64,000 bases of DNA, taken from NCBI GenBank assembly GCA_024682255.1, contig GCA_024682255.1_4716.1; one strand, 5' to 3'. Position numbers and translations under genes: made by a program. The notes under the pieces are model-generated. The model was not told the origin of the DNA. It worked only from the letters and a program-made list of their open reading frames with translations, and did not search any database. The DNA comes from a phage. This document shows positions 3,092-47,707 of this stretch, piece by piece. The first letter of the stretch is position 1, and each line of letters starts with the position of its first letter.

Positions 3092-4888
3092 TCAATCGAT
3101 TATGTCGTGATCGTTAATTTCTACAATTTCTTCATCGAATCGACCGACGTCTTTCTTCAAGCCTGCATTGGTTGCTGCAACGTCATTTGCGATTTGTGGG
3201 GTAATGATTAACCGACCGCGTTCGTCGATAGGTGCGTACATACTGAACTTCTGACGTCCGGTTGGTTCGGAGTGTGGAAGATTCAGATAGCTTGCGCAGA
3301 ACGGGATGGAACCACTAACCAAACGACTCTCGTCAGCCAATGCAGCACCGCCTGCGTTTTGGCTCTGGAGAACAACATGCGTGCTCACTTTGAACAGCAT
3401 GCAATCACCAGGTGACTGAATCGATGTTGCCACTTTCTCACGTTTATCACGATTGCTCTGGATATTGAGAATCGCTTCCGTTGCAACTTGATTTCGCAAC
3501 GCTTTCTGTACATCGCGATTGGTCATCTCTTTACGGTTGTTCTGTCGTTTACCACGTTCTGTGGTTTTAAGATGGAACCCCAGTTTAAAGATGCTCTTAC
3601 GCACATCCTCCATGACATATTCCAACACCATCAATTCCTTACCGAACATCGTCGTGGTATCAACACGACTCATTTCGATAGTAACATTGTCGATCAGATA
3701 CGCCATAAATTCGTAGAAGTCGTCGCAAGGAATATTTTCCTGTTTGAACTTCTTCTGCTGAATCTCGTCAACGTAAAGATCGAGACTGTCGATGTGGTGG
3801 TTTACATCACGCAACAAACGCGCATCCGCATTGTTGTTATTAAAGATAATCAAACCGAGTAATGTACGCCAATGGTCTGGCGCATTCGCGAACTCTTCAA
3901 CCGGATAATCTTCCGGAAAACGATCGTAATAACGGTCGATGAGATACAAGAATGCACCGACAAGGCCAAGAACAATACGTTCCGTGCCTCCGCGTCTTAC
4001 AGCAATTTGAATATCAGGATGTTTGTAACGTACAGCGCTAGCGCTACGACTTTTACCGCTTTTGCTGATACTAAAGCCTTTAGGAATAACCCCCATGGTG
4101 CGATAGATTACCCATTGGTCACGCGGAAAATCGCGTTCAGCAAGGTTCCGTCCGGTTACGGCTTCGACACCCGCAAAACGTCGGAAACACTCACCCACCC
4201 CATACTTCGCAAAGAGATAGTGACCCAGTGTGGTTACGCTGGTGTGGTTGATGTTGTCACCGTTCACTTTACTTTGTTTGGTAAGATGATAGATTTGCGA
4301 CCAGGGTAATGACAGGTAATGACGATAATCGATACCGGTCGGTGTATCATTGCTCAGGAACTGATACGGTGTACGTTTAACCGTGATTTTGTCACGCGGA
4401 AGCATGATGAATGCCATGTCTTTCGTGTAACTGATTACAGGGTCAGCGAGCACCGCGCTGAGAATGAAGTTCGCACCACGTAGACGCATTTTACCACCCT
4501 GACCTACCGCGGGTAATAGGAGAGGATGTCGGATAATGCAGTAGTCCTTTCCGGGTTCACGACGGTCACCTGATTCCATCGCGCCGTACCAGCGGAATTC
4601 TAGCATCACCATAAACACATCGGAAGGCGCAAGGTCGAAGGTCAGCTTACCGCTATCCTTCCCTTTGGTTTTCTTTCCTCCGCTTAAGTAGTGGAACTGT
4701 TCGCGGGCCATACAGCGACGCAGGCCATGATACACCAGATCCTTAGGTAAACTATCTTTGCTGTTCCGCCAAAGACGATCAACATAGGACTCAACATCTT
4801 GCATCTTATCGACGACGATGTTGCGTGCTATCTTCTCGTTCATCTTCGGTGCAAGCTCAGCGACAGCTTTGCAGAATCTAGGATCCAT
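3092..4888 (-). CDS. hypothetical protein (598 aa)
   Basis: The ORF track starts at a GTG at 4891; the adjacent ATG at 4886-4888 with AAAGGAG five nt upstream is the more likely start. Confidence 0.8.
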   Translation of the reverse strand: MDPRFCKAVAELAPKMNEKIARNIVVDKMQDVESYVDRLWRNSKDSLPKDLVYHGLRRCMAREQFHYLSGGKKTKGKDSGKLTFDLAPSDVFMVMLEFRWYGAMESGDRREPGKDYCIIRHPLLLPAVGQGGKMRLRGANFILSAVLADPVISYTKDMAFIMLPRDKITVKRTPYQFLSNDTPTGIDYRHYLSLPWSQIYHLTKQSKVNGDNINHTSVTTLGHYLFAKYGVGECFRRFAGVEAVTGRNLAERDFPRDQWVIYRTMGVIPKGFSISKSGKSRSASAVRYKHPDIQIAVRRGGTERIVLGLVGAFLYLIDRYYDRFPEDYPVEEFANAPDHWRTLLGLIIFNNNNADARLLRDVNHHIDSLDLYVDEIQQKKFKQENIPCDDFYEFMAYLIDNVTIEMSRVDTTTMFGKELMVLEYVMEDVRKSIFKLGFHLKTTERGKRQNNRKEMTNRDVQKALRNQVATEAILNIQSNRDKREKVATSIQSPGDCMLFKVSTHVVLQSQNAGGAALADESRLVSGSIPFCASYLNLPHSEPTGRQKFSMYAPIDERGRLIITPQIANDVAATNAGLKKDVGRFDEEIVEINDHDIID

Positions 4889-4927
4889 CACACACTCCTT
4901 TCAGAAAGTTGCTTAAGCAGATTAAAG

Positions 4928-6364
4928 TTACTTTTTCGATGCCGCTTTCTCAAGAATCTTGAAAAAGGTCATACCTATACCGACAACGGCCGCAGTTATA
5001 CTCGCAGCGGCTTTCCAAACATCGACGTTACGTTGACGTCGCGCTTCTTCCGCCTCACGTTGTCTTTTTGCCTCTTCATCTCGACGACGTAGCTCGGCCG
5101 TGAATTCATCATGCTTACGTTTCGCGTCCTCATCTCGGCGACGCATTTCAGCGATAAATTCATCGTGCTTTCGTTTTGCTTCCTCATCACGACGTTTTAA
5201 ATCAGCTTGATAATCTTCGTGTATTTGTCTACGTAGATCATCTTGACGTTTCATTTCGGCTTGGTGTTGTTCCATCCTACGTTTTTGTTCGTCTTTAAGC
5301 TGATCGAGTTCGGCTTTATGTTGTTCATCACGCAGCTTTGCGTCGGCGCGATGCGCCTCGTGCATCTGTGCGATAACTGCCTTGTGTTCATCCGCCATAC
5401 GTCGCATTTCAGCCATCACCCCTTTAAGGGTTTCTTCTGATGCCTTACGTTCGTAGCTACGTTGGTCGAAATCATTTTTGTAGGCTTCTTTTTGGACGGG
5501 GTCGCGCCAATGCAATGCCGATTCACGTGTCGGAAAAACATTGTACTTCCACATCTCTTTTTCCAAATCTTCGACCGGTACGAAGATGGAGTCATTATTC
5601 CCGAAGGTAACCAACATACCTGGCGCGCCTGCTCCATTCGTTGGTTTTATTTCGAACGCTTTCCCCAGCACGTTAACCCATAAGCTATACGGATTATGAA
5701 AGTCGGGTGGCGTCCAATGGATAGTGAGTTGTGTTCCGAGAATCCGGAAACCCTCTGTTTTTCCCGTCAAGCTCCGCGCGCACGTTGCGATGTAGGGGTG
5801 ATCAATCCCTTTCGTAACGTGGTCTGCGCTTTTGTATTCTCCTTTAACTTTTACGATTGCCACGTTGATTTGCGCGACATAAGCGGGTTGATTAAAGTTC
5901 AACGTGTTGAGGTCAATTTGACATATCTCATCCAGCGTATCGTACCAGTCTTGCTGGTCTAATAGACGCGGCATTTTCTCTGTGTTAACAATACGACGGA
6001 TATGCGGTTTCCTTATCGCGTAACCTGTGCCGTTTTTAACACGGAGTATATCCCGACGTCTACCCGCGTAGACGAAGTTTCTGAATGCACCATTCGCATT
6101 AGATACGTCATGGCTGTCAACTATTACAGGACTACGAAATTTTGAACGTCGTACGATCCTGAATGTATTGCCGTCCTCAACCCTACCAGGAATGTACTGG
6201 AACATATTGTCGGAGGTGATAACCAACACGGTATGGCCAGATTCATTAATACATGCCCATCCTAATTCCAGGTCATATAACGGTTCAGCATAACCGTCAA
6301 TGCGATAAGCGTGCGTACCATCCCACGGTTCGAACGCGGTATCACATATTGGCATGGAGGGCAT
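4928..6364 (-). CDS. hypothetical protein with tandem charged coiled-coil repeats and a C-terminal transmembrane anchor
   Basis: ATG at 6362-6364 with GGAGG upstream (the track's TTG at 6370 is probably not the start). Near the C-terminus the 18-aa unit RRDE[ED]AKRKHDEF[IT]AE[ML]R occurs twice in tandem with a third partial copy, followed by hydrophobic AAASITAAVVGIGMTFF. Confidence 0.8.
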   Translation of the reverse strand: MPSMPICDTAFEPWDGTHAYRIDGYAEPLYDLELGWACINESGHTVLVITSDNMFQYIPGRVEDGNTFRIVRRSKFRSPVIVDSHDVSNANGAFRNFVYAGRRRDILRVKNGTGYAIRKPHIRRIVNTEKMPRLLDQQDWYDTLDEICQIDLNTLNFNQPAYVAQINVAIVKVKGEYKSADHVTKGIDHPYIATCARSLTGKTEGFRILGTQLTIHWTPPDFHNPYSLWVNVLGKAFEIKPTNGAGAPGMLVTFGNNDSIFVPVEDLEKEMWKYNVFPTRESALHWRDPVQKEAYKNDFDQRSYERKASEETLKGVMAEMRRMADEHKAVIAQMHEAHRADAKLRDEQHKAELDQLKDEQKRRMEQHQAEMKRQDDLRRQIHEDYQADLKRRDEEAKRKHDEFIAEMRRRDEDAKRKHDEFTAELRRRDEEAKRQREAEEARRQRNVDVWKAAASITAAVVGIGMTFFKILEKAASKK

Positions 6365-6572
6365 CGTCAACCTCCATCTGATTGAAAACTATCACGCATA
6401 ACGCATTTCCCTTTTCTTGTTCTTATCAATCCGACAGCCGACGGTTTCAGCATCGTTCCTAGCGCGAGAACGACCTTACGTGTTGTCTATGCCTTATTCA
6501 TCGCAGGCGTCTGTCACCTAGGTAATGTAAGCGTCAAATTTTTTCTATTCGCAACGATAAACGGCATAGAAA

Positions 6573-6603
6573 CCTCCCCCAACCCTTACGGGCTGAGGGA
6601 GGC
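6573..6603 (-). terminator. GC-rich hairpin of the dispersed family, downstream of the 740-aa gene
   Basis: cctccc...gggagg arms 100 bp past the stop at 6702; preceded on the plus strand by catag, which is TATG on the minus strand after the hairpin. Confidence 0.55.
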
Positions 6604-6701
6604 TGACTTATGTATCACGGTGCCGGATGAATGTCCGGTGCAATGAAACCATCCGCAACGTTGTCGTCAAGAATATCATCCAACGAAGCAGCTACGGTAG
6701 T

Positions 6702-8924
6702 TCAGTTGGTCTGAACCGGCAGCTTGATGTTTTCAGTGTAGACCTTACGCAGGTTCACAACGTTAATCAGACCCAGCAGCGGGCAGTTGTTAACGAAGCG
6801 GCAGCGCGGCTGAACCATGGTTTCTTTAGAAACCTGACCGTTACGGGTAACCTGAGCAACAGATACCAGTTCCGGTACATACAGGAACATACCGAAGGTC
6901 AGCGGATCCGGAGAACCCTGGATACCACGAGACAGGGTCACGAAGATCTTATCGCGCAGCATGACGTTCGGGTTATCTACAACCACGAAGTTGAAGCTTA
7001 CACCAACGGTACGGAAATCACCATCGGTCTGCAGGAACTGCGGGATGTAGTTGTCAGTTGCTACTACGCAACGCGGTTTCTCATCAGCGTTGGAAGACAG
7101 CAGCTGCAGAGCTGGCTGATAACCAGACTCGGAGTACATGCGGTATGCCATTTCACGAATCACGTTCATGATCGCAGCAGACACTTCAGCACGACGTTCT
7201 GCAGTGGTGGTACCCTGAACAGATTTCTCCAGGTCCAGATTGATTTCTTCGAACCACGGACGGATCAGGTAACGACCGAAACCTTCGATCTGGATGTCGC
7301 CGAACTGACGGAAGCGAGAGGTCGCAACCGCTTTCAGTGCGTCTTTGTAGCTGAACAGTTTCTCAACCATCAGGTTGTCGAAACGTGCGTTAGCAGCTTG
7401 GATCAGAACGTCCAGGTCAGCAGCGTTTTCTTCCCAATCCAGCGGACGAGGAATGGAGAACGGAGCCAGCAGGCCGATTGCGTAACGTTCTTGCTTCATG
7501 TTGAAGTCAAGGTGCTTACCACGCTCACGACGGTTGCTGTTGTTACGGCGGATACGCAGTTCGTAACCAACCAGTTTGAAGCTCAGGTCTTCAGCCAGTT
7601 GTTTGAACTCTTCGCTCTTACGCGGTTGTTCGATGTTGTCCTGATCAACCAGGCGATACAGTTCAGCGTTAGCGCCGTTAACACGCAGACCGGCTTTCTC
7701 TACGTTGGAAGAACCGTAAACTTCGATTGCCAGCTGAGCAGCGGATTTCGCATCGATGATGTCCTGCAGCGCTTCGGCTTTCGCGCCTTTAACGTCAACG
7801 GTGTTCTCATCAACGAAGATGGAGTGGGTGTCGAACGCCAGGGTCATTTTGCGGAAGTCGCCTTCCAGGGATTTCTGGAAACCGTTGGTGATCAGACCAG
7901 ATACGTCGAACGGTACGTAAGAGGTTTTGCTGTGCTTGGTAGATTTGATTTCCACCAGGATTTTGGTCAGCGTGATCTGGGCGTCCAGTGCGTCGGTGTT
8001 GTCGCTGTAACCGTTAGCCAGGATGCTATCGTCTTCAGCAATACCGATCATGTCGATCAGTTTATCAACAGCCAGGTAAGACGTTTTATAAGTTACGCCT
8101 TTAATTTCGATGTCACGCGGAGCAACGATAGTTTTGTCAACGAAGTACTGTGCGTTAGCATCGTCAGCACGATAGATCGGATGCAGATCGGTCACGTCGT
8201 TGGACAGAACGTCGTTGTACATGAACGCATCCAGCAGCGGACGACGTACCCAATCAGCCGGAGTACCGTCAGCGTTACGACGCAGGTGGTTGAACACCAG
8301 CGGACGACGGAAAGATACGTCGTAACCGATCTGGTTCGGAGCCAGAACGATGGTGTTATACAGTTCGTTACCCATGCGGCTCAGACGAGAAGCCTTCACG
8401 TTGAACACAACGGAGTACGGCATCATGTCACGCAGTTCTTTCTGGTCGTAGGACAGCTGAACCAGTTCTTCAGATTCGCAACCGCAGGAATCAGCAGCCA
8501 TCATGACGAAGTTAGAGCTGTCAACTTCACGGCCAGACGGAGTGGTGCTGATGTTCATGGAACGTGCTTGTTTAGCATATTCCACCGGGTTACCATGAGC
8601 CAGCATGATCAGTGCTGCTGCACGAGCCTGCTGTGCGTTCATGGTGAACAGCTGTTCTTCAATACGCTGCTTCTCTTCCGGAGTGGTGGTTTCGAAGCCC
8701 AGCATGGACAGAACCGGTTCTTCGGCTTTACGGATGTCGCTGCTGAAGCTCTTAACATCCATTTCGTTAACCAGTTTGTCCATGGATTTGAAATCAACCT
8801 TAGAAGCAGATTCCATAGACAGGAAGGTGTTCTCCAGACCTTTGTCTGCTGGTTTGCTACCATTAGCGGTCAGGAACTGGCGAGTGGCCGCGACCTGTTG
8901 GCTAAGAAGGGTTTTATCATTCAT
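6702..8924 (-). CDS. abundant virion structural protein, putative major capsid protein (740 aa)
   Basis: ATG at 8924 with AAGGATA upstream. Strong codon bias (CGT, CTG, GAA, AAC preferred) indicates high expression, and the length matches jumbo-phage major capsid proteins. No fold-diagnostic motif is readable, so tail sheath or another abundant protein cannot be excluded. Confidence 0.45.
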   Translation of the reverse strand: MNDKTLLSQQVAATRQFLTANGSKPADKGLENTFLSMESASKVDFKSMDKLVNEMDVKSFSSDIRKAEEPVLSMLGFETTTPEEKQRIEEQLFTMNAQQARAAALIMLAHGNPVEYAKQARSMNISTTPSGREVDSSNFVMMAADSCGCESEELVQLSYDQKELRDMMPYSVVFNVKASRLSRMGNELYNTIVLAPNQIGYDVSFRRPLVFNHLRRNADGTPADWVRRPLLDAFMYNDVLSNDVTDLHPIYRADDANAQYFVDKTIVAPRDIEIKGVTYKTSYLAVDKLIDMIGIAEDDSILANGYSDNTDALDAQITLTKILVEIKSTKHSKTSYVPFDVSGLITNGFQKSLEGDFRKMTLAFDTHSIFVDENTVDVKGAKAEALQDIIDAKSAAQLAIEVYGSSNVEKAGLRVNGANAELYRLVDQDNIEQPRKSEEFKQLAEDLSFKLVGYELRIRRNNSNRRERGKHLDFNMKQERYAIGLLAPFSIPRPLDWEENAADLDVLIQAANARFDNLMVEKLFSYKDALKAVATSRFRQFGDIQIEGFGRYLIRPWFEEINLDLEKSVQGTTTAERRAEVSAAIMNVIREMAYRMYSESGYQPALQLLSSNADEKPRCVVATDNYIPQFLQTDGDFRTVGVSFNFVVVDNPNVMLRDKIFVTLSRGIQGSPDPLTFGMFLYVPELVSVAQVTRNGQVSKETMVQPRCRFVNNCPLLGLINVVNLRKVYTENIKLPVQTN

Positions 8925-9073
8925 TGAAAGTATCCTTTACAGAATTAACTTATATAAGTCGGTCGATAGACCATAGCGTACACGCGTGCATGCGCCACTA
9001 TAGTATCAGTAAACACTTACCGTTATTGAGGTCGTGATACAACACTAAAAATGCCGCATAACTTTTCCCTACG

Positions 9074-9694
9074 TCACAAACGACGCAGGCGATAATGGAT
9101 GGAACGATTGGTGCAATATGAACGGAACAGCGGCAATTGCGCAACTTCCGCAAGACTCATATTAATTCGCAGGTGTTCAATAACGGCGCTGTAGTTATCA
9201 GCAATACGATCGCTCAATAACTCTTCTGCCAATAAAGGAAGACAATCGACAACAATCGCGATCACATCCTCATTAACATAACGCACCCGAACACTCAACG
9301 GACGTTTGTCTGGGCTGTAAGTTGGATCCGCCAAACGACGTTCAATATCACGCGGATAGCTCGTCAGTAAATGGTAATAACCATTGTCATAACGATTGAT
9401 GTACTCACACAGCACATCAACATTCTTCTCTGGCGGCAAACCTGTTTCGTCATAGTGATACGCAAACATACCACCAAGCAGGTTGTTAAGATGAACCGCA
9501 GGGTTCGCTTGTTCGTGTTCTTTCGTGATGAAGAAAGGCACGTTCTGGGCTGCGAAATAAAAACCTACATCATTGGGCGATAGTATGCCGAAAAGACTTT
9601 TAGGATCCAATAACACCTGTAAGTCGTCACGCGCATTTCGAATAATCGCGTGTTCTACCCAATTCGGAACGACGAGATATCGGAGTTCCTTCAT
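9074..9694 (-). CDS. hypothetical protein (206 aa)
   Basis: ATG at 9694; divergent from the helicase-like gene starting 40 bp away. Confidence 0.75.
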   Translation of the reverse strand: MKELRYLVVPNWVEHAIIRNARDDLQVLLDPKSLFGILSPNDVGFYFAAQNVPFFITKEHEQANPAVHLNNLLGGMFAYHYDETGLPPEKNVDVLCEYINRYDNGYYHLLTSYPRDIERRLADPTYSPDKRPLSVRVRYVNEDVIAIVVDCLPLLAEELLSDRIADNYSAVIEHLRINMSLAEVAQLPLFRSYCTNRSIHYRLRRL

Positions 9695-9733
9695 TATGAT
9701 TACCTCTTTGCAAGTATCGAAAGGATTGAGTCG

Positions 9734-11344
9734 ATGGACCCAAAACAGATAGCCATTAAGATTATTACGTTACTGTTTCGTAATGCACAATTGAACCATC
9801 CCGATCCCAGTACGATCGAACATGTTAAATCCGTCTTAGATAAAGTCGAACCCCCGAAAAACCATCTCGCTACAGACGTAGATAGAGAGGTTTTCAACAA
9901 CCTGATGAATACCATTCATTGGATGTTGGAACAACCATTATCGGAACCTTTCGATAAACAACAGTTGTTACAAAGGATACGTTTAGATTGCCTTGAACAA
10001 AGCAACCTTTACGAGATTCTTGCCGACGGACTGTACGATATCGAAGACGACGCTCATATCAGTAAGGTCTGTTCACTCTATTACAACGAATTACGTAATC
10101 TGATTACCCGTCGTCGTGTTTTCGAAACCTTTAGAAACACGTACATGGATATCAGTAACGGGCGACTTGGGGATAAAGAATTTTTCGATGCGATGGCGAA
10201 TTTGAAATTATCGCTAGACAGTATCGAAATGGATACCGAAAATCCCGAAGAGATGTCGTGTATGATTGACGGCTTTATCGCTGACAGTGAAGACGATATC
10301 GAGAAAGTTGAACGTATGTTCGTCAAAGCGATGGAACGTAACAGTCCTGAAGGTGGGTTTGTAACCGGCTGGCAAGGTTTTAATAAAATGTTGGGGTCGG
10401 TCGGCGTTTTACGTCGCGGTACCTTAGGACTGATTGGTGCAATGCAGCACCGGAACAAGTCAGGCGTGTTGTTAAAACTGTTCACACATCTGGCATTGTA
10501 CAATAAACCCCATTTCTTTTTTCCGGAGCGAGCAAAGAAAGCATTACTGATTCATTTGTCGACAGAAAACGAAGTGGAAGAAAACACGCTTCAGATATAC
10601 AAGAACATGCGAGAACAGGAAACGGGCGAATATGTCGATATTCGTAAGATTGACCCTCGCGAGGCATCACGTTATGTGTTGAAGGTGTTCAACGATGCGG
10701 GTTTCTCTGTTTGTATGCGTCGTGTTGATGGGATGAGTTATAAACAACTCGCTAATCTCATCGACCATTTCGAACGCATGGGTTATGAAGTCATGGCGTT
10801 GTTCATTGACTATCTGAAAATGTTCTCATCGGAAGGGTTGGATAGAAATGGGCCGACCGGCGCATGGCTCCAAGAACTCTTCAACAAAGTCCGTAACCTC
10901 TGCAGCGTTAAACGTATTTTAGGTATGACCGTACACCAGCTGTCATCCGATGCGAAGATGCGTGCACGTGATGGTAACGATGAAGAGTTCGTTGACCAGG
11001 TCGCAGGCTTAAGTTACTGGGATGGCTGTAAAGGGATTGACCGTGAGATTGACCTTGAAGTGATTGTTGATATCGTTAAGGAACCCGGCAAACGTCAAAG
11101 CTGGCAGGTCTTTGCATTAGGGAAAGACCGTCAACCGGATAACGGTTCAACGAAACCTGAAGACAAACATTTCGCGATGCCATTCCAAACCATCGGGATG
11201 CTTCCTGATGATTACGGTAAGAAAGCGGTATATTGCCGCAAGGTTGGCGGACAACCTGTCTCCGAGGGAGGTAAAGGTCCGTGGAACAAGTTCGATGAAA
11301 ACGCAGCACCGAGTAATGAATTACAATTTGATTTAGAATTTTAA
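9734..11344 (+). CDS. DnaB-family (RecA-fold) helicase-like protein with non-canonical Walker A
   Basis: The track's start at 9650 is GTG and overlaps the divergent gene; the first in-frame ATG at 9734 has AAGGA upstream. The translation has VMALFIDYLKMF (compare DnaB LIMIDYLQLM), then VHQLSSDAKMRARDG and a segment resembling the DnaB H3/H4 region. The P-loop reads GAMQHRNKSG rather than GxxxxGK[ST]. Confidence 0.6.
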   Translation: MDPKQIAIKIITLLFRNAQLNHPDPSTIEHVKSVLDKVEPPKNHLATDVDREVFNNLMNTIHWMLEQPLSEPFDKQQLLQRIRLDCLEQSNLYEILADGLYDIEDDAHISKVCSLYYNELRNLITRRRVFETFRNTYMDISNGRLGDKEFFDAMANLKLSLDSIEMDTENPEEMSCMIDGFIADSEDDIEKVERMFVKAMERNSPEGGFVTGWQGFNKMLGSVGVLRRGTLGLIGAMQHRNKSGVLLKLFTHLALYNKPHFFFPERAKKALLIHLSTENEVEENTLQIYKNMREQETGEYVDIRKIDPREASRYVLKVFNDAGFSVCMRRVDGMSYKQLANLIDHFERMGYEVMALFIDYLKMFSSEGLDRNGPTGAWLQELFNKVRNLCSVKRILGMTVHQLSSDAKMRARDGNDEEFVDQVAGLSYWDGCKGIDREIDLEVIVDIVKEPGKRQSWQVFALGKDRQPDNGSTKPEDKHFAMPFQTIGMLPDDYGKKAVYCRKVGGQPVSEGGKGPWNKFDENAAPSNELQFDLEF

Positions 11345-11371
11345 ACGCAAAAAAAAAAAGATTGTACGGTT

Positions 11372-11403
11372 CCCTCCTCCAACCCGTAAGGGAAGGAGGA
11401 GGG
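11372..11403 (-). terminator. Hairpin of the dispersed family between convergent genes
   Basis: ccctcctcc aacccgtaa ggaaggagggaggg, with an A11 run at 11348-11358 on the plus strand (U-tract on the minus strand). Confidence 0.6.
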
Positions 11404-11419
11404 GTTATGACCGCTTTGA

Positions 11420-11746
11420 TTAACTTATTGTCATGAATTCATTAGGTGAAAATTTCCAGCCGTTCTCAGTGAGAAGCGTGTTGAGTTTCGCTGCAACGAT
11501 AAGCCATGCGTGCATGGCTGTTACATCGTATTGGCGGTTCACTCGACGTTGGTTTTCGATATTGATTTGCTCCTGTTCAGTGATGTTTGGATAAAGTGCG
11601 ATAGCGCTAGGTTTACCCAGCGCGCTAGTCATCACCGCCGTACATTCACTGATAATGTTGTTTAAGTGGTAGTTATACACCGTTCCACGCATGACGCGAT
11701 GACGGCATTCGATAATAGCGTCGTAAATGATTTCTCGAGTAATCAT
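11420..11746 (-). CDS. hypothetical protein (108 aa)
   Basis: ATG at 11746; compact spacing with the next gene. Confidence 0.7.
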   Translation of the reverse strand: MITREIIYDAIIECRHRVMRGTVYNYHLNNIISECTAVMTSALGKPSAIALYPNITEQEQINIENQRRVNRQYDVTAMHAWLIVAAKLNTLLTENGWKFSPNEFMTIS

Positions 11747-11752
11747 GATAAT

Positions 11753-12154
11753 TTAAAACATACGGTCGTTTTTAGCACGGGCGTTCATTACCAGATCGTA
11801 GATGCCTGCGGTTCGTAAGCACTCTTCGTAGTAACGATGTGCGCCTTCATCAGCCATCCATGATAACCCTCGGCTATCCGCAACAATAACCAGTTTATTA
11901 TTGTTGAACGCACACACCACACGGTAGGTCGCGTTGTTATTCGGATCGCGAGTGATAAGTTCGTAGACGCCGTTAACAGGTTTACTGAATTCACCGTTTA
12001 ACGGGATGAGTTCTGTAGTACCTTCAGCAAACGTTACGTTGATCGGTGATGGATCTTTGGCGATAACAGTATATTCCACATTGTGTTCTTCACTGGTCAT
12101 GATACCGAAGTAAGAACTCACAGGGGAACGTGGTACACTAAGAATATTAAACAT
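11753..12154 (-). CDS. hypothetical protein (133 aa)
   Basis: ATG at 12154 with AAGAGGA upstream. Confidence 0.75.
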   Translation of the reverse strand: MFNILSVPRSPVSSYFGIMTSEEHNVEYTVIAKDPSPINVTFAEGTTELIPLNGEFSKPVNGVYELITRDPNNNATYRVVCAFNNNKLVIVADSRGLSWMADEGAHRYYEECLRTAGIYDLVMNARAKNDRMF

Positions 12155-12223: not shown

Positions 12224-12793
12224 TTAGACGATGAGTGACCAGGTGGTAAGCACCCCGCTTGCGAATTCGAGCTTAAGACGTTTACCGATAAGTTGTTGTT
12301 GGATCATCTTCTCGGTGATACGTCGATCATGCTGAACCGCTTTATCAAACGCTTCTTTCGCTTCAGCTTGGTAGAAGTTCGTTTCTTCGTTTTCGTCGAT
12401 CTCTTCGAGAGCATCATCGTCGATGTCAGCAAGTTTCACTCGACCGTTTTCATCAGGTTGTTCTGCAGGTTCATTGTCATACGGCGTGTCTTTTGTTGGT
12501 GCGACACGATGTTGCAACTCGACCTGTGTTAACATGATCTCCATCTCACCATCGATAGGAATGATTTCATCGGCGCTGCCGTTTTCGGTCAGCTCTCGAC
12601 TTTCCAGTAATGTCGTCGTAACAGAGAACACCTCTTCAACAGGAACCTCATCATCGTCGATGGTGTTAACCGTGTTGCTGGTAACTTCGGCAACGACCAT
12701 CAAATCAAATGCGTGAGGATCGCCTGGCATTTTGATTCCTGGAAGTTTGTTGAGGTACCAAGGATCAAGAATCATGATTTCTGGATTAAACAT
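12224..12793 (-). CDS. hypothetical acidic protein (189 aa)
   Basis: ATG at 12793 with AAAGGTAA upstream; Asp/Glu-rich (DDDALEEIDENEE). Confidence 0.75.
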   Translation of the reverse strand: MFNPEIMILDPWYLNKLPGIKMPGDPHAFDLMVVAEVTSNTVNTIDDDEVPVEEVFSVTTTLLESRELTENGSADEIIPIDGEMEIMLTQVELQHRVAPTKDTPYDNEPAEQPDENGRVKLADIDDDALEEIDENEETNFYQAEAKEAFDKAVQHDRRITEKMIQQQLIGKRLKLEFASGVLTTWSLIV

Positions 12794-12869: not shown

Positions 12870-13772
12870 TTACTTAGTCTTCGAGTTACAAGGACTGACA
12901 TGTTGTTGTACTCGTTGAATTGTATCGTAGTACGGGTTAGATTGGTTGAACATGTTGTTGTGTGGATGATAGCCGTATGGTGCATTTTGCCTTGTTGATG
13001 AGAAACCTTGTTGAGAAGGACGATTTGAATTAACCGCGAGTACGTAGTAAACCAAATTTTGACGGTCGAACGTTCCTTCGTTTTTGAAGGTGTCGGCGTA
13101 GGCTTTTACCGCTGGAGCGAGCCTATCACCATCAGCGGTAATAATTGTACCGTCTGGGTAAACTTCACGAACGACGCACCATGTTCCGATAAGAACGTCT
13201 TTGGGTGGCGTATTGCCGTATCCGGTTGTAACGGTAAGGTAAGTATCGAACCCTTCAGAACAACAAGGATGACGATAGATAGGTCCTGTCATTTCCGTTC
13301 TATCGGTATCATCGCATTTCTCTATTGAGAACGATGATGTGTCGGTTTTGAAATTGTCAAATTCTTTCTTTAAGTCGATTACAGGTTCTTTCGTATAGTA
13401 CTTCTTGATTGCTTTGACGTAAAGATCAGGAACGGTTGTCAGCATTCCGTTATACCTGATTCTCAGGTTTTCGAGTAATCCAAAGATGCTCGCGCATGCC
13501 TGTTCGCGAGGTTTTGTAAGATAAGAGATCCCCCCAGGAACGCTGGGATCTTTGAGAAAGAAGATTGCGTTATTGTCGTTGTGTGACACATTAAAGAAAA
13601 CGATTGATTCGATATATACGGAGCATAGGCTATCGTTGGCGTCGTCAGATAACACCCAGATGCACTCATCGGTCGTCTTGTTTAAAAGTTCTGTTTTGTC
13701 CACCAAACGTTGTTTCATTGCGAGGAAATGTGCCTGTTGTTCAGCGGATAATTCACGATAAATAGTGGTCAT
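12870..13772 (-). CDS. hypothetical protein (300 aa), paralog of the gene at 13858-14632
   Basis: ATG at 13772 with AAGGAG upstream. Shares PIYRHPCCSEGFDTYLTVTTGYG...REVYPDGTIIT with PIYIHPECHTTYDRYLTITGGVA...REIYPDGRIVT in the neighbour. Confidence 0.8.
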   Translation of the reverse strand: MTTIYRELSAEQQAHFLAMKQRLVDKTELLNKTTDECIWVLSDDANDSLCSVYIESIVFFNVSHNDNNAIFFLKDPSVPGGISYLTKPREQACASIFGLLENLRIRYNGMLTTVPDLYVKAIKKYYTKEPVIDLKKEFDNFKTDTSSFSIEKCDDTDRTEMTGPIYRHPCCSEGFDTYLTVTTGYGNTPPKDVLIGTWCVVREVYPDGTIITADGDRLAPAVKAYADTFKNEGTFDRQNLVYYVLAVNSNRPSQQGFSSTRQNAPYGYHPHNNMFNQSNPYYDTIQRVQQHVSPCNSKTK

Positions 13773-13857
13773 GCTCGGCTCCTTGATTACGATAAGGATG
13801 ATTGTGGTTTTGTGATGCTGGTAGGGCTCCTTTGTTTAGGGCCCTACCAATATTGGG

Positions 13858-14632
13858 TTACTCAGGATCGGCGTAGAAATGATGGGGATAGCCGGAGTAC
13901 GATCCTGCGTTACCAGTTATGAATTCTTTCTGGGAATCGACGACGAGTGCGTAGAACTGTCGGGAATTTGTTAGCGTTGAGAAATAAGCGGAAAGGACTT
14001 TTTCATTCAACGCATCGCAAGGTAGACAGGTGCGCCCGCAAAACGTAACGATACGGCCGTCAGGATAGATCTCACGAATCATTCTCCACTCACCGATATC
14101 CACTGGTGATGGCGCTGCTACACCACCTGTTATCGTTAAGTAACGATCGTACGTGGTATGGCATTCAGGATGAATATAGATCGGCTTGTTCGTTTCGACA
14201 GGTTCCGAAGTATCTCGACGACTAAGGAGTTCAACAACTTCAAGATAAATCGTTGGTAGATCGCGGAGAATACCGGTGTTACGACGTTTCTTTGTGATTC
14301 GCGGACGAATCTCGTTAAGAGCGTATTCGAGCTTACGTTCAGCTTCGTACGCATCGAGTTTTATTAGGTGGCCCGGTTCATCGGAATGATCCTGAGTTAT
14401 GTAAACGAAATACGTGTTGTCTTTTGCAGCGCGAAAGATTCGAGCGACCTTAAATGTTTCTACAGTGCGATAACCAAGGCGCGATTGATTTTCCACAGGA
14501 GAAAATATCCAATGTCGTCCTTCGTCCGCCCCAACAATTTCGTTGAAACTATCCGTTTGTTCTGGGACCTGGTAGTCAGCCATTAATGTATCAAGAGCGT
14601 CGTCAGCCAGTTTGGTGTAAATATCTGTCATG
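13858..14632 (-). CDS. hypothetical protein (258 aa), paralog of the gene at 12870-13772
   Basis: The track's ORF runs to 14817 across the intergenic hairpin; the ATG at 14632 (MTDIYTKLADD) has GAGGAT upstream and is the more plausible start. Confidence 0.75.
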
Positions 14633-14687
14633 TTTGTATCCTCGGTTGTTAAGAGAAATTTACAATGATAACAGTAACCGTTGTTAT

Positions 14688-14717
14688 CACCTAGGTAATG
14701 TAGTCGCGAAATAAACT
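14688..14717 (-). promoter_or_regulatory. Conserved leader motif CCTAGGTAATGTAGTCG[C/T]GAAATAAACTG, copy 2 of 3
   Basis: Near-identical to 53449-53473 and partly to 6515-6529; in each case it lies between an upstream hairpin and the next minus-strand start codon. Confidence 0.45.
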
Positions 14718-14735
14718 GGATTAGACAGCATAGAA

Positions 14736-14767
14736 CCCTCTCCCAACCCGTAAGGGAAGGGAGAGGG
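14736..14767 (-). terminator. Hairpin of the dispersed family (core type ccctctccc aacccgtaa gggaagggagaggg)
   Basis: A 12-bp stem with a symmetric AA/AA internal loop and a four-nucleotide loop, sitting between the stop at 14774 and the next gene; catag precedes it on the plus strand. Confidence 0.6.
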
Positions 14768-14773
14768 AATATA

Positions 14774-15407
14774 TCACCAATGATCGAAGGAACCAGGAGT
14801 GTTACGAACGATCTCAACTTGGAAGGTTATTGGTGTTGATGGCAATGAAACATATTCGCGTTGCGATAGCGGGACGTTGTCTTCTCGCTCATCGATGCGA
14901 GCGGAACCTGTCAGAAATTGGAACATAGCGACTTGAAGCTCATCGGTGAAACGGAGGTACTCACCGATGTGTGGTGTTGCATCATATCGAATAAGTACGT
15001 TGCCAAACCGTCGTGCGATATTTGGAGTATCTGTGAACGAAACAGGGAAATCCAAAGTCATTCCCATCGTTTCACCCGGCTTCATTTTCCGAATCGACGC
15101 AATTGGCACGTCGAAGATATTCCATTCTTCTTTCATCGTGTCTGGAAACACACCGCGATACAAGATGGTCTTTTGATGACGATGAACGGGTTGTAAACGG
15201 TCAACCAATATTTTCAAAGGTTTAAGTTCTTCAGCCAACTCATAATCTGCTTGGATGTTCCACTTTGCCGCAAGTTCCATTAGGTTGGGATACGCGCTAT
15301 ATTTATTGACGATAGTCCAGTTAACATTACGCAAATCAATAGGAAGGAATTTGATAATTTCCTTGTTGAATATCCATTGGTTTAATTTCTTAATCTCCGA
15401 AAGCATG
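14774..15407 (-). CDS. hypothetical protein (about 211 aa)
   Basis: Start taken at the ATG at 15405-15407 (MLSEIKK), just after the stop of the upstream gene at 15423; the track's longer ORF would overlap that gene. Confidence 0.6.
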
Positions 15408-15422
15408 ACGTACTCACTACAG

Positions 15423-16790
15423 CTAAACGGTTGGACGAACGGTGTTGTCTTTTTCTGGTGCAAGCCATAACGTGACCGTACCATGGCATGTCCACTGTGG
15501 TTCACGTACAGAAGAACCTGCCATCGTAACAGCACAATCGGTACGCATGATAACCCCGTATGCTTCGCAGAGATTGTTATCCTGCATCCACACAACTTTA
15601 GCAGGCATGCCGGGATACAACAAATCCATGTTTGCGTATTCCCACACCAACTGCATTGTTCTACCGCGTAATCCAGCAGTATTACTTAATTCACGCCATC
15701 GGTTATCGGTTACGCGTCCCATCCCTTTCGCCACCTTCACGTTATCGCTACGTTCTTCAGTTACGTACTCGCTAACGTTTACGGTACGACTGATTATCGT
15801 ATCACCCCCTTTTGATAATGTCATTCCCTGACTCATCTGACTTGCCGAAACAAAACGCCCGCCCGCATTACCTAACAACGAAGCCGCGTTATTGATGTCG
15901 CTTACCGACGCCCCTCTCGTACAGGCAATTTCCACGTATTTGTCACGATTGATCCAGGTCTTGTCCATGCCCGGAAACATATCGGCAGGATAGTTGTAAA
16001 AGATAGCCGTGCGCCGACCGTCAGAGAAACGGGTTTCGTCATAGAGAGGATAAATATACAGATACGGAGATTGGTAATAACAACCGACGTCCGCTGAATA
16101 AATACCGACCTGGTTCTGGATTTTATCTACGAGATCCATTGCGTTGGTACCATGCGGAAGAATAAGCAACTTGAACAGGTTGTCGTTATTCGGTGCAACA
16201 ATATCCACACCCTGCATTTTGAATCCGGTGTCGGCTTCAACCGCAGAAAGTATCTTGCTGAATTCGAGTCGTAACACATCCAGAACTTTCGACCCAGTAT
16301 AGTTTTCACCGGTTTCTGATTGCATGAAGCTTTCAAGAACAGGATCGAACAGTTGAAATTGAAGATCGACCATTTGTTCGTAGTCTTTCTTCGAAGAATC
16401 GGTTGCGGTACGTTCGTCGTTAGCAGACATACGACTGTCTACGGTTGTTAAACAAACCGCTCGGTAGACGTAAGCTTGCGCAGCATCGTCTACGGTTTGG
16501 CGTTGTCCACGCATCAGACTGTACGCCTGCACGATGATGCGCATTTTAAGTTGTTGTTGGTACGGTAGAATGTATTTTCCGTAACTGCCTGGCGGGAACT
16601 TTACAGAGATATAAAGTTCATCTCCTGCGTTACGTTCATAGTCTCGATACGTGTGGACTTGAGTCACTAAAGGAACAGACACCGTCATTGACGGCGTGAT
16701 TAATTCCGCGGTGACTTTATACGCAACAGCAACTGCTTCCTGCGCAAATGTACCGATATACCGTCCTAACGGCGTCTGTTTGTAATCCAT
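15423..16790 (-). CDS. hypothetical protein (455 aa)
   Basis: ATG at 16790; tightly packed with its neighbours as in an operon. Confidence 0.8.
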   Translation of the reverse strand: MDYKQTPLGRYIGTFAQEAVAVAYKVTAELITPSMTVSVPLVTQVHTYRDYERNAGDELYISVKFPPGSYGKYILPYQQQLKMRIIVQAYSLMRGQRQTVDDAAQAYVYRAVCLTTVDSRMSANDERTATDSSKKDYEQMVDLQFQLFDPVLESFMQSETGENYTGSKVLDVLRLEFSKILSAVEADTGFKMQGVDIVAPNNDNLFKLLILPHGTNAMDLVDKIQNQVGIYSADVGCYYQSPYLYIYPLYDETRFSDGRRTAIFYNYPADMFPGMDKTWINRDKYVEIACTRGASVSDINNAASLLGNAGGRFVSASQMSQGMTLSKGGDTIISRTVNVSEYVTEERSDNVKVAKGMGRVTDNRWRELSNTAGLRGRTMQLVWEYANMDLLYPGMPAKVVWMQDNNLCEAYGVIMRTDCAVTMAGSSVREPQWTCHGTVTLWLAPEKDNTVRPTV

Positions 16791-46140: not shown

Positions 46141-47640
46141 ATGAGCGAACAAGAACGAAAACCTAAGAAGAAACTGCTCGGTATTCAATGTCGACACATC
46201 AGCTATAACGAAGCGAACGATGGCAGCAAGAACGACCTCATGATCGCAAAAGAGATCATGTTCTTTGATGATAATACGCAAGCGACGAACCTTCGCTTCT
46301 TCGAGAATTACAAACGTCCGTTTTGGGTGACGGTAGAGAGTAAACGTAAGAACAAATATAAAAAGGAAAGCGAGAAGCTCTCGCACGTACGTCGCTATGA
46401 TGTCCGTCAAAGTGAACTGGTTGAAAAGATCAGTTCGGTGCTTTATAAAAGACGTGCTGATGATAACACCCGTTTACAGCAGCTTGCACGGAGTCCATAC
46501 CTCTATGGAACGGACGTTAGCGCTAGCTGTTATTTAAAAACCCAATACAATACAAAATGGCCGGAATACGTCGATAAATTACCCGCTTCCATCGCCTGTT
46601 TCGATATCGAAACCGACGTTGTCCATGGACACGGTAAGATCGTCTGTATGTCTATTACAATGGGATACAATGCGATCCTTTGCTATACCAAGGACTTCGT
46701 TGGTCATATTCCGAATGCGATTGAGAAAACCCATGAGAAGATTCGATATTACCTGGCCGAACGTCTAAACACCAAAGAAGATCCGCACGCATTTGAAAAA
46801 TATCAGTACGATGTGCGAATCGTAGAAAGTCCGGCACAAGCGGTCATCCAATGCATGCAGAAGGTTCACGAATGGCAGCCGGATTATCTCCTTGGCTGGA
46901 ATATCGCGTTCGATATTCCGCGCATGCTCCAGGCACTGAACGAAGAAGGGTATCGTCCCGAGGATGTTTTCTCCGATCCCCGTGTACCACCTAAGTATCG
47001 TATTGCTCGCTGGGTACCACCGAAGACCGACAAGGTATCTGCTTCAGGGCGTAAAACCAACCTTACCCTTGAGCAAACCTGGCCGATGTTTTATACGATG
47101 GCTACGTATCAGGTTATGGATGCGATGTGTGGTTATAAGTTCGTTCGTTTAGGAAGACCGGATGAGGGACGTTATTCACTCGATGCGGTATTAGAGCGAA
47201 ATAAATGCCATACGAAATTAAAAGCAATTCCTGGTACAGAAGGGTTCACAGAGCTTGCGTGGCACGAAGAGATGCAAACGAACCATCAAATCGACTACGG
47301 TGTATATAACCTTTGGGATAACCAAGGCATCGAGGCGTTGGACCAGAAAACAAAAGACTATTCGATGACCATCCCTATCCGTTTAGCGGCGTCGGATTTG
47401 AAAGATTTCAGTTCTAACCCTAAACGTATCTGCGATAAACTTTTCTTCGTTTATCTTAACCGTGGGGAAGTCATGGGCTGCACTGCCGACGACATGACCC
47501 AGGAAGAAGATAAGTGGGTTATCTCACGAACCGGACATATCGTCACATTGCCGTGCGATCTCATGGCGGACAACGGCATCCATCTCTTCTGGGATATGCC
47601 GAACCTGAGAAGTTATATTAGATTATTTGTTGCGGATTAA
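46141..47640 (+). CDS. DNA polymerase N-terminal/3'-5' exonuclease domain protein (499 aa as annotated; the C-terminus may be spliced)
   Basis: ATG at 46141. Exo I ACFDIETD, Exo II GWNIAFDIP and Exo III YGVYNLWD are present at family-B-like spacing. No polymerase motifs A, B or C are present, consistent with a split polymerase. Confidence 0.6.
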   Translation: MSEQERKPKKKLLGIQCRHISYNEANDGSKNDLMIAKEIMFFDDNTQATNLRFFENYKRPFWVTVESKRKNKYKKESEKLSHVRRYDVRQSELVEKISSVLYKRRADDNTRLQQLARSPYLYGTDVSASCYLKTQYNTKWPEYVDKLPASIACFDIETDVVHGHGKIVCMSITMGYNAILCYTKDFVGHIPNAIEKTHEKIRYYLAERLNTKEDPHAFEKYQYDVRIVESPAQAVIQCMQKVHEWQPDYLLGWNIAFDIPRMLQALNEEGYRPEDVFSDPRVPPKYRIARWVPPKTDKVSASGRKTNLTLEQTWPMFYTMATYQVMDAMCGYKFVRLGRPDEGRYSLDAVLERNKCHTKLKAIPGTEGFTELAWHEEMQTNHQIDYGVYNLWDNQGIEALDQKTKDYSMTIPIRLAASDLKDFSSNPKRICDKLFFVYLNRGEVMGCTADDMTQEEDKWVISRTGHIVTLPCDLMADNGIHLFWDMPNLRSYIRLFVAD

Positions 47641-47707
47641 GAAATAAATCGGTTAAGTTTTACCTCCTTTCTCGATAAGTATGATACTAAGCGAGCAAGG
47701 AGTTGAT

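What the first reader, a model, noticed from the sequence alone, without database searches (positions are those of the whole stretch)
9734..11344. DnaB-family helicase-like protein with a non-canonical Walker A
The C-terminal half matches DnaB motifs (IDYL Walker B-like, H3- and H4-like segments), but the P-loop reads GAMQHRNKSG instead of GxxxxGK[ST]. This could be a lineage-specific variant or an ATPase-impaired helicase-like protein with a loader or structural role. The N-terminal 280 residues do not obviously match a DnaB N-domain or a primase.
Basis: partly seen in the sequence, partly recalled or inferred. Interest (0 to 1): 0.5.

Follow-up and report, generated by a model that had tools for sequence, protein, structure and literature searches.

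The report
Jumbo-phage DnaB-like helicase, altered P-loop
This gene is the already catalogued DnaB-like replication helicase of a Goslar-type nucleus-forming jumbo phage. Its odd ATP-binding loop is a conserved hallmark of the whole phage family, not an error or a sign of a dead enzyme.

Summary
ORF 9734-11344 (+) encodes a 536-aa protein whose P-loop reads GAMQHRNKSG, with Asn where canonical Walker A has Gly before Lys.

The gene is ordinary and already known. It is 534/536 identical to Escherichia phage Goslar gp043, which RefSeq annotates as a DnaB-like replicative helicase. It matches Pfam PF20307, 'Divergent DnaB-like ATPase', at E=1e-120. Iyer et al. 2021 described that family for PhiKZ-type jumbo phages, including a modified nucleotide-binding motif.

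In 168 family representatives the pre-Lys residue is:
- Phe, Tyr, Trp or His in 83%
- Asn in 12.5%
- Gly in 3.6%

The Walker A Lys and Ser/Thr, catalytic Glu278, Walker B Asp359-Tyr360, H3 Gln402 and arginine finger Arg466 are invariant. Against Goslar, 35 of the 37 differing codons are synonymous. A degenerate ATPase or a pure loader role is therefore unlikely.

The full-length model hits only DnaB-type helicases (E=7e-14). The N-terminal domain resembles the DnaB N-domain only weakly.

One point seems new. A Gly at Lys+2 replaces the lost Gly at Lys-1, and the two covary (Fisher 6e-8). This suggests a remodelled, not broken, P-loop.

The parts
9734..11344 (+). Complete gene for the divergent DnaB-like helicase (536 aa plus stop). 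Orthologue of Goslar gp043, PhiKZ gp118, PhiPA3 gp134+gp131 and 201phi2-1 gp197.
   Evidence: ORF. 97.6% nt and 534/536 aa identity to Goslar gp043. PF20307 at 402.7 bits against a cut-off of 26. phrog_3213 at E=1.2e-122. Orthologue names come from the record annotations.
9720..9725 (+). Shine-Dalgarno-like AAAGGA, 8 nt upstream of ATG 9734
   Evidence: Read directly from the sequence.
9734..10234 (+). N-terminal all-helical domain (residues 1-167). Five short helices form a head (H3-19, 25-35, 48-66, 75-85, 90-99), followed by a long helical hairpin (H106-142 and H147-167).
10235..10348 (+). Linker (residues 168-205): a low-confidence acidic loop at 169-180, then the linker helix H186-203
   Evidence: AF2 secondary structure and pLDDT. 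hhalign starts aligning to E. coli DnaB residue 175 here.
10349..11233 (+). RecA-like ATPase (motor) domain, residues 206-500
   Evidence: Alternating strand/helix pattern in the model. Foldseek against solved structures returns DnaB at E=7e-14. hhalign covers profile columns 180-468 (query residues 168-470) against DnaB 175-444.
10436..10465 (+). Non-canonical Walker A / P-loop, GAMQHRNKSG (residues 235-244). A236-x4-N241-K242-S243, then G244.
   Evidence: Sequence. Aligned to DnaB A-R-P-x-M-G-K-T. Family counts at 241: F66, Y65, N21, G6, W6, H2, C1, D1. K242 is 168/168, S/T243 is 168/168, G244 is 155/168. Positions 241 and 244 covary, Fisher 6e-8.
10565..10567 (+). Glu278 (in LSTEN), equivalent to the DnaB catalytic Glu in FSLEM
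   Evidence: 168/168 invariant. Aligned to FSLEM of E. coli and Aquifex DnaB.
10793..10816 (+). Walker B strand MALFIDYL (residues 354-361) with Asp359-Tyr360
   Evidence: D359 and Y360 are 168/168. Aligned to (M/V)IDYLQL of DnaB.
10928..10945 (+). Motif H3-like TVHQLS (residues 399-404) with Gln402
   Evidence: Q402 is 161/161 of sequences covering it, H401 is 149, S404 is 147. Aligned to LSQLNR/LAQLSR of DnaB.
11036..11062 (+). Motif H4-like IDREIDLEV (residues 435-443) with Asp440
   Evidence: D440 is 158/161. Aligned to IEQDADLIM of E. coli DnaB.
11120..11131 (+). GKDR (residues 463-466): Lys464 and Arg466, equivalent to GKQR of DnaB (arginine finger)
   Evidence: R466 is 161/161 and K464 is 158/161. 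Aligned to GKQRNG of E. coli DnaB. Assigning the DnaB Arg as the trans-acting finger rests on established DnaB structural literature, from my own knowledge.
11234..11341 (+). Disordered Gly-rich C-terminal tail (residues 501-536) with aromatic residues (GPWNKF ... QFDLEF)
   Evidence: pLDDT 32-40. A Gly-rich tail ending in an aromatic pair recurs in 94/161 family members.

Best explanation
**What it is.** This is the phage's own replicative ring helicase, the chimallivirus 'divergent DnaB'. It has the full DnaB layout: an N-terminal helical head with a hairpin, a linker helix, and a C-terminal RecA-like motor.

**How it most likely works (inferred, not shown here).** It probably forms hexamers inside the phage nucleus. 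It would burn NTP at subunit interfaces and translocate on single-stranded DNA to open the fork for the phage's split B-family DNA polymerase. The residues involved would be Lys242 and Ser243 in cis, Glu278 and Asp359 for water and Mg2+, Gln402 as sensor, and Arg466 and Lys464 in trans.

**The P-loop.** It is remodelled, not disabled. The Gly that normally precedes the Lys is replaced by Asn here and by Phe or Tyr in most relatives. A Gly three residues later (Lys+2) is fixed instead.

In the model, helix alpha-1 begins three residues before the Lys. Residues 241 and 244 would then lie one helical turn apart, so the missing side chain at 244 could make room for the bulky residue at 241.

**Shown versus inferred.** Shown: family membership, motif conservation, the covariation, purifying selection and the fold. 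Inferred: hexamer formation, NTPase and unwinding activity, polarity, and the exact phosphate-binding geometry.
For: **Identity**
- 534/536 aa identical to Goslar gp043.
- PF20307 at E=1.4e-120 covering 3-355 of 356 profile positions.
- phrog_3213 'DnaB-like replicative helicase' at E=1.2e-122.

**Homology to DnaB**
- Family profile against solved structures finds Aquifex and Geobacillus DnaB at E=4.8e-6 to 4.4e-5.
- hhalign against E. coli DnaB gives probability 87% and E=3.7e-6, with all motifs in register.
- The full-length AF2 model (pLDDT 76) gives DnaB, T4 gp41 or G40P for all 50 top Foldseek hits, best E=7e-14.

**Active-site conservation in 168 representatives**
- K242, S/T243, E278, D359 and Y360 are 168/168.
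- Q402 and R466 are 161/161.
- H239 is 143/168.

**Purifying selection**
- 38 nt differences from Goslar give 35 synonymous and 2 non-synonymous codons.

**Remodelling of the P-loop**
- G at Lys-1 comes with non-G at Lys+2 in 6/6 cases. Non-G at Lys-1 comes with G at Lys+2 in 155/162 cases. Fisher p=6e-8.
- The six G-bearers are only 28-39% identical to each other and each has Phe/Tyr-bearing nearest neighbours.
- The model's helix starts at residue 239.

**Biology from papers**
- The gene is a core chimallivirus gene in the capsid block, and the RAY orthologue gp315 localises inside the phage nucleus (10.1101/2023.02.24.529968).
- PhiPA3 gp131 and gp134 are nuclear (PMC10643120).
- Chimalliviruses are described as having 'a DnaB-like replicative helicase' and no identified primase or clamp (PMC13648687).
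- Iyer et al. judged the divergent DnaB catalytically active (PMC7824862).
Against: - No biochemical assay of any member turned up in the paper library.
- The canonical pre-Lys Gly is regarded as important for P-loop backbone geometry. This is established knowledge of Walker A motifs, recalled from my own knowledge. A Phe, Tyr or Asn there could reduce or alter nucleotide binding.
- This protein does not hit Pfam DnaB_C or the DnaB N-terminal model even at E up to 10.
- The Fisher test on the covariation is not corrected for phylogeny.
- The helix-start inference rests on an unrelaxed, ligand-free AF2 model whose coordinates I could not inspect.
Confidence: 0.8

Rival explanations
1. ATPase-impaired DnaB-like protein. 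It would act as a helicase loader, a scaffold or a structural component of the replisome or nucleus, not as the motor.
For: - The P-loop lacks the canonical Gly.
- No loader or primase has been identified in chimalliviruses (PMC13648687), so some replication roles remain unassigned.
- The N-domain is highly divergent.
Against: - Inactive P-loop proteins usually lose the Lys, Ser/Thr, Walker B Asp, catalytic Glu or Arg finger. This is general knowledge of pseudo-ATPases, from my own knowledge. Here all of them are invariant in 161-168 representatives at no more than 50% identity to each other.
- The P-loop is among the best-conserved segments: A236 148/168, L/M237 160/168, H239 143/168, K242 168/168.
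- It is the only DnaB-like helicase named in the chimallivirus replication repertoire. If it were only a loader, there would be no known helicase to load.
Confidence: 0.07
2. An active hexameric RecA-family translocase whose job is not fork unwinding. Examples would be branch migration or recombination-dependent replication restart, or movement of nucleic acid in connection with the phage nucleus.
For: - Nuclear localisation is compatible with any DNA transaction.
- No primase partner is known.
- The gene sits in a conserved block with the major capsid protein and a virion protein, not with the polymerase genes.
Against: - The full-length architecture and every top structural neighbour are replicative helicases: DnaB, T4 gp41 and SPP1 G40P.
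- Its tree is congruent with that of the DNA polymerase and with the whole-genome tree.
- Iyer et al. tie its divergence to that of the polymerase.
Confidence: 0.12
3. The Asn is a sequencing error or a strain-specific mutation in an otherwise canonical GK[ST] helicase.
For: Six of 168 relatives do carry GK[ST].
Against: - The same peptide occurs in Goslar, with two synonymous differences within the P-loop codons.
- It also occurs in two 74%-identical relatives.
- 162/168 representatives lack the Gly.
- PhiKZ reads GGLQHQYKSG.
Confidence: 0.01

Closest known systems
Escherichia phage vB_EcoM_Goslar gp043 (YP_009820728.1), annotated 'DnaB-like replicative helicase'
   Same: - 534/536 residues identical and 97.6% nt identity.
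- Same neighbours: major head protein, then gp042, then the divergently transcribed helicase, then gp044-046.
   Different: - Two conservative substitutions, N55S and R134K, both in the N-domain.
- About 1.5 kb downstream, the window carries a roughly 2.3 kb insertion that Goslar lacks.
Pfam PF20307 divDNAB ('Divergent DnaB-like ATPase'): the group-1 jumbo-phage DnaB of Iyer et al. 2021, for example PhiKZ gp118, 201phi2-1 gp197 and PhiPA3 gp134/gp131
   Same: - Full-length profile match.
- Same x-K-[ST]-G P-loop. PhiKZ reads GGLQHQYKSG.
- Same synteny next to gp119-like and major capsid genes.
- Homologues found in 282 phage records; every record listed is a 210-310 kb jumbo phage.
   Different: - The Goslar clade has Asn, not the usual Phe or Tyr, before the Lys, and Met, not Leu, at 237.
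- It has a longer acidic insert in the linker.
- It has a C-terminal extension of about 20 residues ending in DLEF.
Bacterial DnaB and its phage relatives T4 gp41 and SPP1 G40P (Pfam DnaB_C PF03796 plus the DnaB N-terminal domain)
   Same: - Same domain order and RecA-like motor.
- Walker B IDYL, catalytic Glu, H3 Gln, H4 Asp and the GK.R arginine finger all align.
- These are the best structural neighbours.
   Different: - 10-15% identity.
- No Pfam DnaB_C or DnaB N-terminal hit for this protein.
- Walker A reads A-x4-[N/F/Y]-K-[ST]-G, not A-x4-G-K-[ST]-x.
- The N-domain is only marginally recognisable.
- There is an extra invariant N257-x-P259 after helix alpha-1.
T7 gp4 helicase-primase (C-terminal tail only; a functional analogy recalled from memory, not tested)
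   Same: A flexible acidic C-terminal tail that ends in an aromatic residue. In T7 such a tail docks the helicase onto the DNA polymerase.
   Different: - No primase domain here.
- No sequence similarity between the tails.
- No interaction has been tested.

Membership tests
Pfam PF20307 divDNAB (jumbo-phage divergent DnaB-like ATPase) | Score above the curated gathering threshold over essentially the whole profile | tested here: met
   402.7 bits against a cut-off of 26, E=1.4e-120, profile positions 3-355 of 356. All 23 aligned relatives also match.
Pfam PF20307 divDNAB (jumbo-phage divergent DnaB-like ATPase) | Modified nucleotide-binding loop with intact Mg2+/catalytic site, the feature named by Iyer et al. 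2021 | tested here: met
   N241 replaces the P-loop Gly. K242, S243, E278 and D359 are present and invariant in the family. It says 'Walker B'. I read that as Walker A, because Walker B is canonical here.
Pfam PF20307 divDNAB (jumbo-phage divergent DnaB-like ATPase) | Occurrence in PhiKZ-type (group 1 / chimallivirus) jumbo phages, in the conserved block with the major capsid protein | tested here: met
   The window is Goslar-like. A phrog_3231 major head protein lies at 6702-8924. The same gene order is seen in PhiKZ and PhiPA3. Block 5 of the core genome is described.
DnaB-family replicative helicase (bacterial DnaB, T4 gp41, G40P) | Canonical Walker A [AG]-x4-G-K-[ST] | tested here: not met
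   It reads A-M-Q-H-R-N-K-S. The Gly before Lys is Asn, while Lys and Ser are kept.
DnaB-family replicative helicase (bacterial DnaB, T4 gp41, G40P) | Walker B hhhhDY(L), catalytic Glu after strand 2, H3 Gln, H4 acidic motif and arginine finger in G-K-x-R | tested here: met
   All five align residue for residue with E. coli and Aquifex DnaB and are invariant or nearly so.
DnaB-family replicative helicase (bacterial DnaB, T4 gp41, G40P) | RecA-like fold of the C-terminal domain | tested here: met
   The AF2 model has pLDDT of about 80-90 in the core. All 50 best Foldseek matches are DnaB-type helicases, E=7e-14 to 8e-10.
DnaB-family replicative helicase (bacterial DnaB, T4 gp41, G40P) | N-terminal helical domain (globular head plus helical hairpin) joined by a linker helix | tested here: inconclusive
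DnaB-family replicative helicase (bacterial DnaB, T4 gp41, G40P) | Match to Pfam DnaB_C (PF03796) at the curated threshold | tested here: not met
   No PF03796 hit for this protein at E up to 10. Seven of 23 relatives hit it, best E=2.9e-7.
DnaB-family replicative helicase (bacterial DnaB, T4 gp41, G40P) | Hexameric ring, NTP-driven 5'->3' translocation on ssDNA, requirement for DNA replication | not testable with these tools
   Needs biochemistry, cryo-EM or genetics. No such data were found in the paper library.

The most novel reading that the evidence does not exclude
The chimallivirus helicases may use a different phosphate-binding loop from the one in other DnaB/RecA-family motors. The obligatory Gly has moved from Lys-1 to Lys+2. 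Helix alpha-1 is extended by about one turn. A near-invariant Gln-His-Asn triplet plus an aromatic or Asn residue lines the site. This could change nucleotide preference, affinity or regulation in a helicase that works inside the phage nucleus without a known loader or primase. The -1/+2 glycine covariation supporting this did not turn up in the papers I searched.
Probability: 0.4. Interest if true: 0.45.

Novelty: already known. Interest (0 to 1): 0.22.

Why it matters
As a scan finding it matters little. The gene is annotated in RefSeq, sits in a curated Pfam family, and its altered nucleotide-binding motif was noted in print in 2021.

The residual value is mechanistic. This is the only replicative-type helicase named in nucleus-forming jumbo phages, and none has been characterised biochemically in the literature I could search.

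The family offers a natural experiment: about 700 diverged sequences in which the 'essential' P-loop Gly is replaced while every other catalytic residue is kept, with an apparent compensating Gly one helical turn later. That makes a simple, testable question of how much Walker A geometry a RecA-type motor can tolerate. It also marks residues 238-244 as a family-specific pocket.

Tried and rejected
- **Single-sequence phmmer against solved structures.** It gave only noise, E>=0.12. The family profile was needed.
- **Second word-indexed homologue search, using the alignment.** It returned the same 22 proteins. The exhaustive representative search supplied the depth: 700 hits, of which 150 were used.
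- **hhalign against a single E. coli DnaB sequence.** It did not extend into the N-domain.
- **Functional data on the PhiKZ orthologue gp118 in the antisense-oligomer screen.** Neither gp118 nor DnaB appears in the main text.
- **Literature searches.** Searches for PF20307/divDNAB and for chimallivirus helicase Walker A found no biochemical study.
- **Neighbouring ORFs.** Pfam found nothing for the six ORFs scanned (9074-9694, 3092-4891, 4928-6370 and three ORFs in 12870-15595). PHROGs found nothing for 9074-9694, 11420-11746, 11753-12154 and 12224-12793, and only marginal unknown-function hits for two of the 12870-15595 ORFs. No loader or primase candidate was recognised next to the helicase.
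- **Sigma-70 promoter and terminator scan of 9000-11800.** It found fewer sites than shuffled sequence does. This is uninformative, since these phages use their own RNA polymerases.
- **The longer GTG 9650 start.** Considered and rejected (see the observation check).
- **A sequencing error.** Considered and rejected.
Full report
**1. What is in the sequence**

The + strand carries an ORF ending at TAA 11342-11344. The mechanical ORF list begins it at GTG 9650.
- It is the start annotated for the Goslar orthologue.
- All 22 homologues begin at the equivalent 'MD.K'.
- AAAGGA lies 8 nt upstream.
- The GTG extension would overlap the divergently transcribed gene 9074-9694.

The pre-motor region is about 205 residues, not 280.

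**2. Whose gene it is**

The DNA is 97.6% identical to Escherichia phage vB_EcoM_Goslar at 46471-48081. This is gp043, annotated in RefSeq as 'DnaB-like replicative helicase'. The protein is 534/536 identical.

The neighbours match Goslar. The major head protein (phrog_3231, E=9e-164) lies at 6702-8924 on the minus strand, followed by a 206-aa gene and then the helicase transcribed divergently. PhiKZ (gp120, gp119, gp118) and PhiPA3 have the same arrangement.

**3. Family**

- Pfam PF20307 'Divergent DnaB-like ATPase' matches at E=1.4e-120, 402.7 bits against a cut-off of 26, over 3-355 of 356 positions.
- PHROG 3213 'DnaB-like replicative helicase' matches end to end at E=1.2e-122.
- An exhaustive search of 1.84 billion representatives found 700 relatives at E<=0.001.
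- tblastn found homologues in 282 phage records; every record listed is a 210-310 kb jumbo phage.

The literature already covers the gene:
- Iyer et al. [quoted passage not shown] - Walker B is canonical here and Walker A is not. I therefore read their 'Walker B' as a slip for Walker A.
- Prichard et al. list the replicative helicase among core chimallivirus genes. They showed the RAY orthologue inside the phage nucleus.
- The two PhiPA3 helicase fragments are nuclear as well.

**4. Is it really DnaB-like?**

The single sequence finds nothing among solved structures and does not hit Pfam DnaB_C. The relationship is remote but real:
- A 23-sequence family profile finds Aquifex, Geobacillus kaustophilus and G. 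stearothermophilus DnaB at E=4.8e-6 to 4.4e-5.
- hhalign against E. coli DnaB gives probability 87% and E=3.7e-6 over 255 columns.
- Seven of 23 relatives hit DnaB_C directly.

The alignments put every motif in register:

| This family | DnaB | Role |
|---|---|---|
| ALQHNFKSGF | ARPSMGKTTF | Walker A |
| S.EN | FSLEM | catalytic Glu |
| IDYL.M | IDYLQLM | Walker B |
| PHQLSS | LSQLNR | H3 |
| DQEVDLEI | EQDADLIM | H4 |
| GKHR | GKQR | arginine finger |

An AlphaFold2 model built on the family alignment has mean pLDDT 76 and 80-90 in the motor core. Its 50 best Foldseek matches among solved structures are all DnaB, T4 gp41 or SPP1 G40P, with E=7e-14 to 8e-10 and 450-530 alignment columns.

**5. 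The P-loop across the family**

I aligned 168 sequences: the query plus hits of at least 380 aa from the two searches. Most are cluster representatives at no more than 50% mutual identity.

Residue at the position before the Lys:

| Residue | Count |
|---|---|
| Phe | 66 |
| Tyr | 65 |
| Asn | 21 |
| Gly | 6 |
| Trp | 6 |
| His | 2 |
| Cys | 1 |
| Asp | 1 |

Conservation of other positions:
- 168/168: Lys242, Ser/Thr243, Glu278, Asp359, Tyr360 and Asn257.
- 161/161 of the sequences that reach them: Gln402 and Arg466.
- 158/161: Lys464.
- 143/168: His239.
- 148/168: Ala236.

The family signature is A-[LM]-Q-H-N-[FYN]-K-[ST]-G. PhiKZ reads GGLQHQYKSG.

The absence of Gly is what is conserved.

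**6. A compensating glycine**

All six representatives with the canonical Gly before Lys lack the Gly at Lys+2. They read GKST, GKSL three times, GKTT and GKSI. By contrast, 155 of the 162 without the canonical Gly have Gly at Lys+2 (Fisher exact p=6e-8).

The six are only 28-39% identical to each other and each is closer to Phe/Tyr-bearing sequences. The change has therefore probably happened several times, although I did not run a phylogeny-corrected test.

In the model, helix alpha-1 starts at His239, three residues before the Lys. Canonical P-loops start the helix at about the Lys, which I state from my own knowledge of Walker A structures. With that extension, positions 241 and 244 are i and i+3 on one helix face, so a Gly at 244 could make room for the bulky residue at 241.

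This is inference from a ligand-free model whose coordinates I could not examine. It does fit a remodelled, selected nucleotide site better than a decaying one.

**7. Active or impaired?**

The 38 nucleotide differences from Goslar fall in 37 codons. Of these, 35 are synonymous and 2 conservative (N55S, R134K). Two synonymous changes lie inside the P-loop codons. This rules out a sequencing artefact and shows purifying selection.

Together with the invariant catalytic set, this argues strongly against a dead ATPase acting only as a loader or scaffold. No biochemical test exists in the library I could search, so activity remains inferred.

**8. The N-terminal region**

The models show the following elements:
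- five short helices
- a long hairpin, H106-142 and H147-167
- a disordered acidic loop
- a linker helix, H186-203

This is the DnaB layout. A model of residues 1-206 alone (pLDDT 80) gave DnaB N-domains (M. tuberculosis, G. stearothermophilus and others) or the homologous DnaG helicase-binding domain as 16 of its 20 best Foldseek hits. The best E-value was only 0.03.

**9. Verdict**

The family call and the 'lineage-specific variant' reading are right. The 'impaired, loader or structural' reading is unlikely.

The feature is already known: it has a RefSeq annotation, a Pfam family and a 2021 paper. The -1/+2 glycine covariation and the residue census are small additions.

Noticed in passing
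window 12870-15400 (minus-strand ORFs 12870-13772, 13858-14817, 14774-15595): A stretch of about 2.3 kb with two or three ORFs that Goslar lacks. Only 16% of 12700-15600 matches Goslar, where the equivalent gap between gp046 and gp048 is 299 bp. There are no Pfam hits and only marginal PHROG hits of unknown function. It looks like a strain-specific insertion inside an otherwise conserved core block.
   Followed up: partly
window 11349-11403: A strong hairpin lies between the convergent helicase gene and gene 11420-11746. Read on the minus strand, it is followed by a run of 11 U (A-run 11349-11359 on the + strand). Folding gives -30.3 kcal/mol, z=-4.5 against shuffles. It looks like an intrinsic terminator for the minus-strand gene, and the simple consensus scan missed it.
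   Followed up: partly
window 11234-11341 (helicase residues 501-536) and family-wide: The helicase ends in a disordered Gly-rich tail carrying aromatic residues. Here it reads GGKGPWNKF...QFDLEF. In 94/161 relatives the tail carries an aromatic pair such as WF, WW or FW. It resembles the acidic/aromatic docking tails of T7 gp4 and SSB proteins (from memory) and may be a partner-binding motif.
   Followed up: partly
L005 (PhiPA3 NC_028999.1) 3492-6817: The PhiPA3 orthologue is annotated as two genes: gp134 (N-terminal, about 389 aa) and gp131 (C-terminal, 104 aa). They are separated by about 1.8 kb that contains a putative endonuclease, gp133. The break falls between Walker B and motif H3. Both pieces were reported inside the phage nucleus. 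The cause is probably an intron or homing-endonuclease insertion, which I did not examine.
   Followed up: partly
window 9695-9733: Only 39 bp separate the start codons of the divergent genes 9074-9694 (minus strand; positional counterpart of PhiKZ gp119) and the helicase. Any promoters for the two genes must overlap or lie within coding sequence. The sigma-70 scan is uninformative for this phage.
   Followed up: no
window 6627-8927 (+ strand): A 766-codon open frame runs antisense across the whole major head protein gene (6702-8924, minus strand). It is almost certainly a non-coding shadow frame of the capsid gene. I mention it only so that it is not mistaken for a gene.
   Followed up: no
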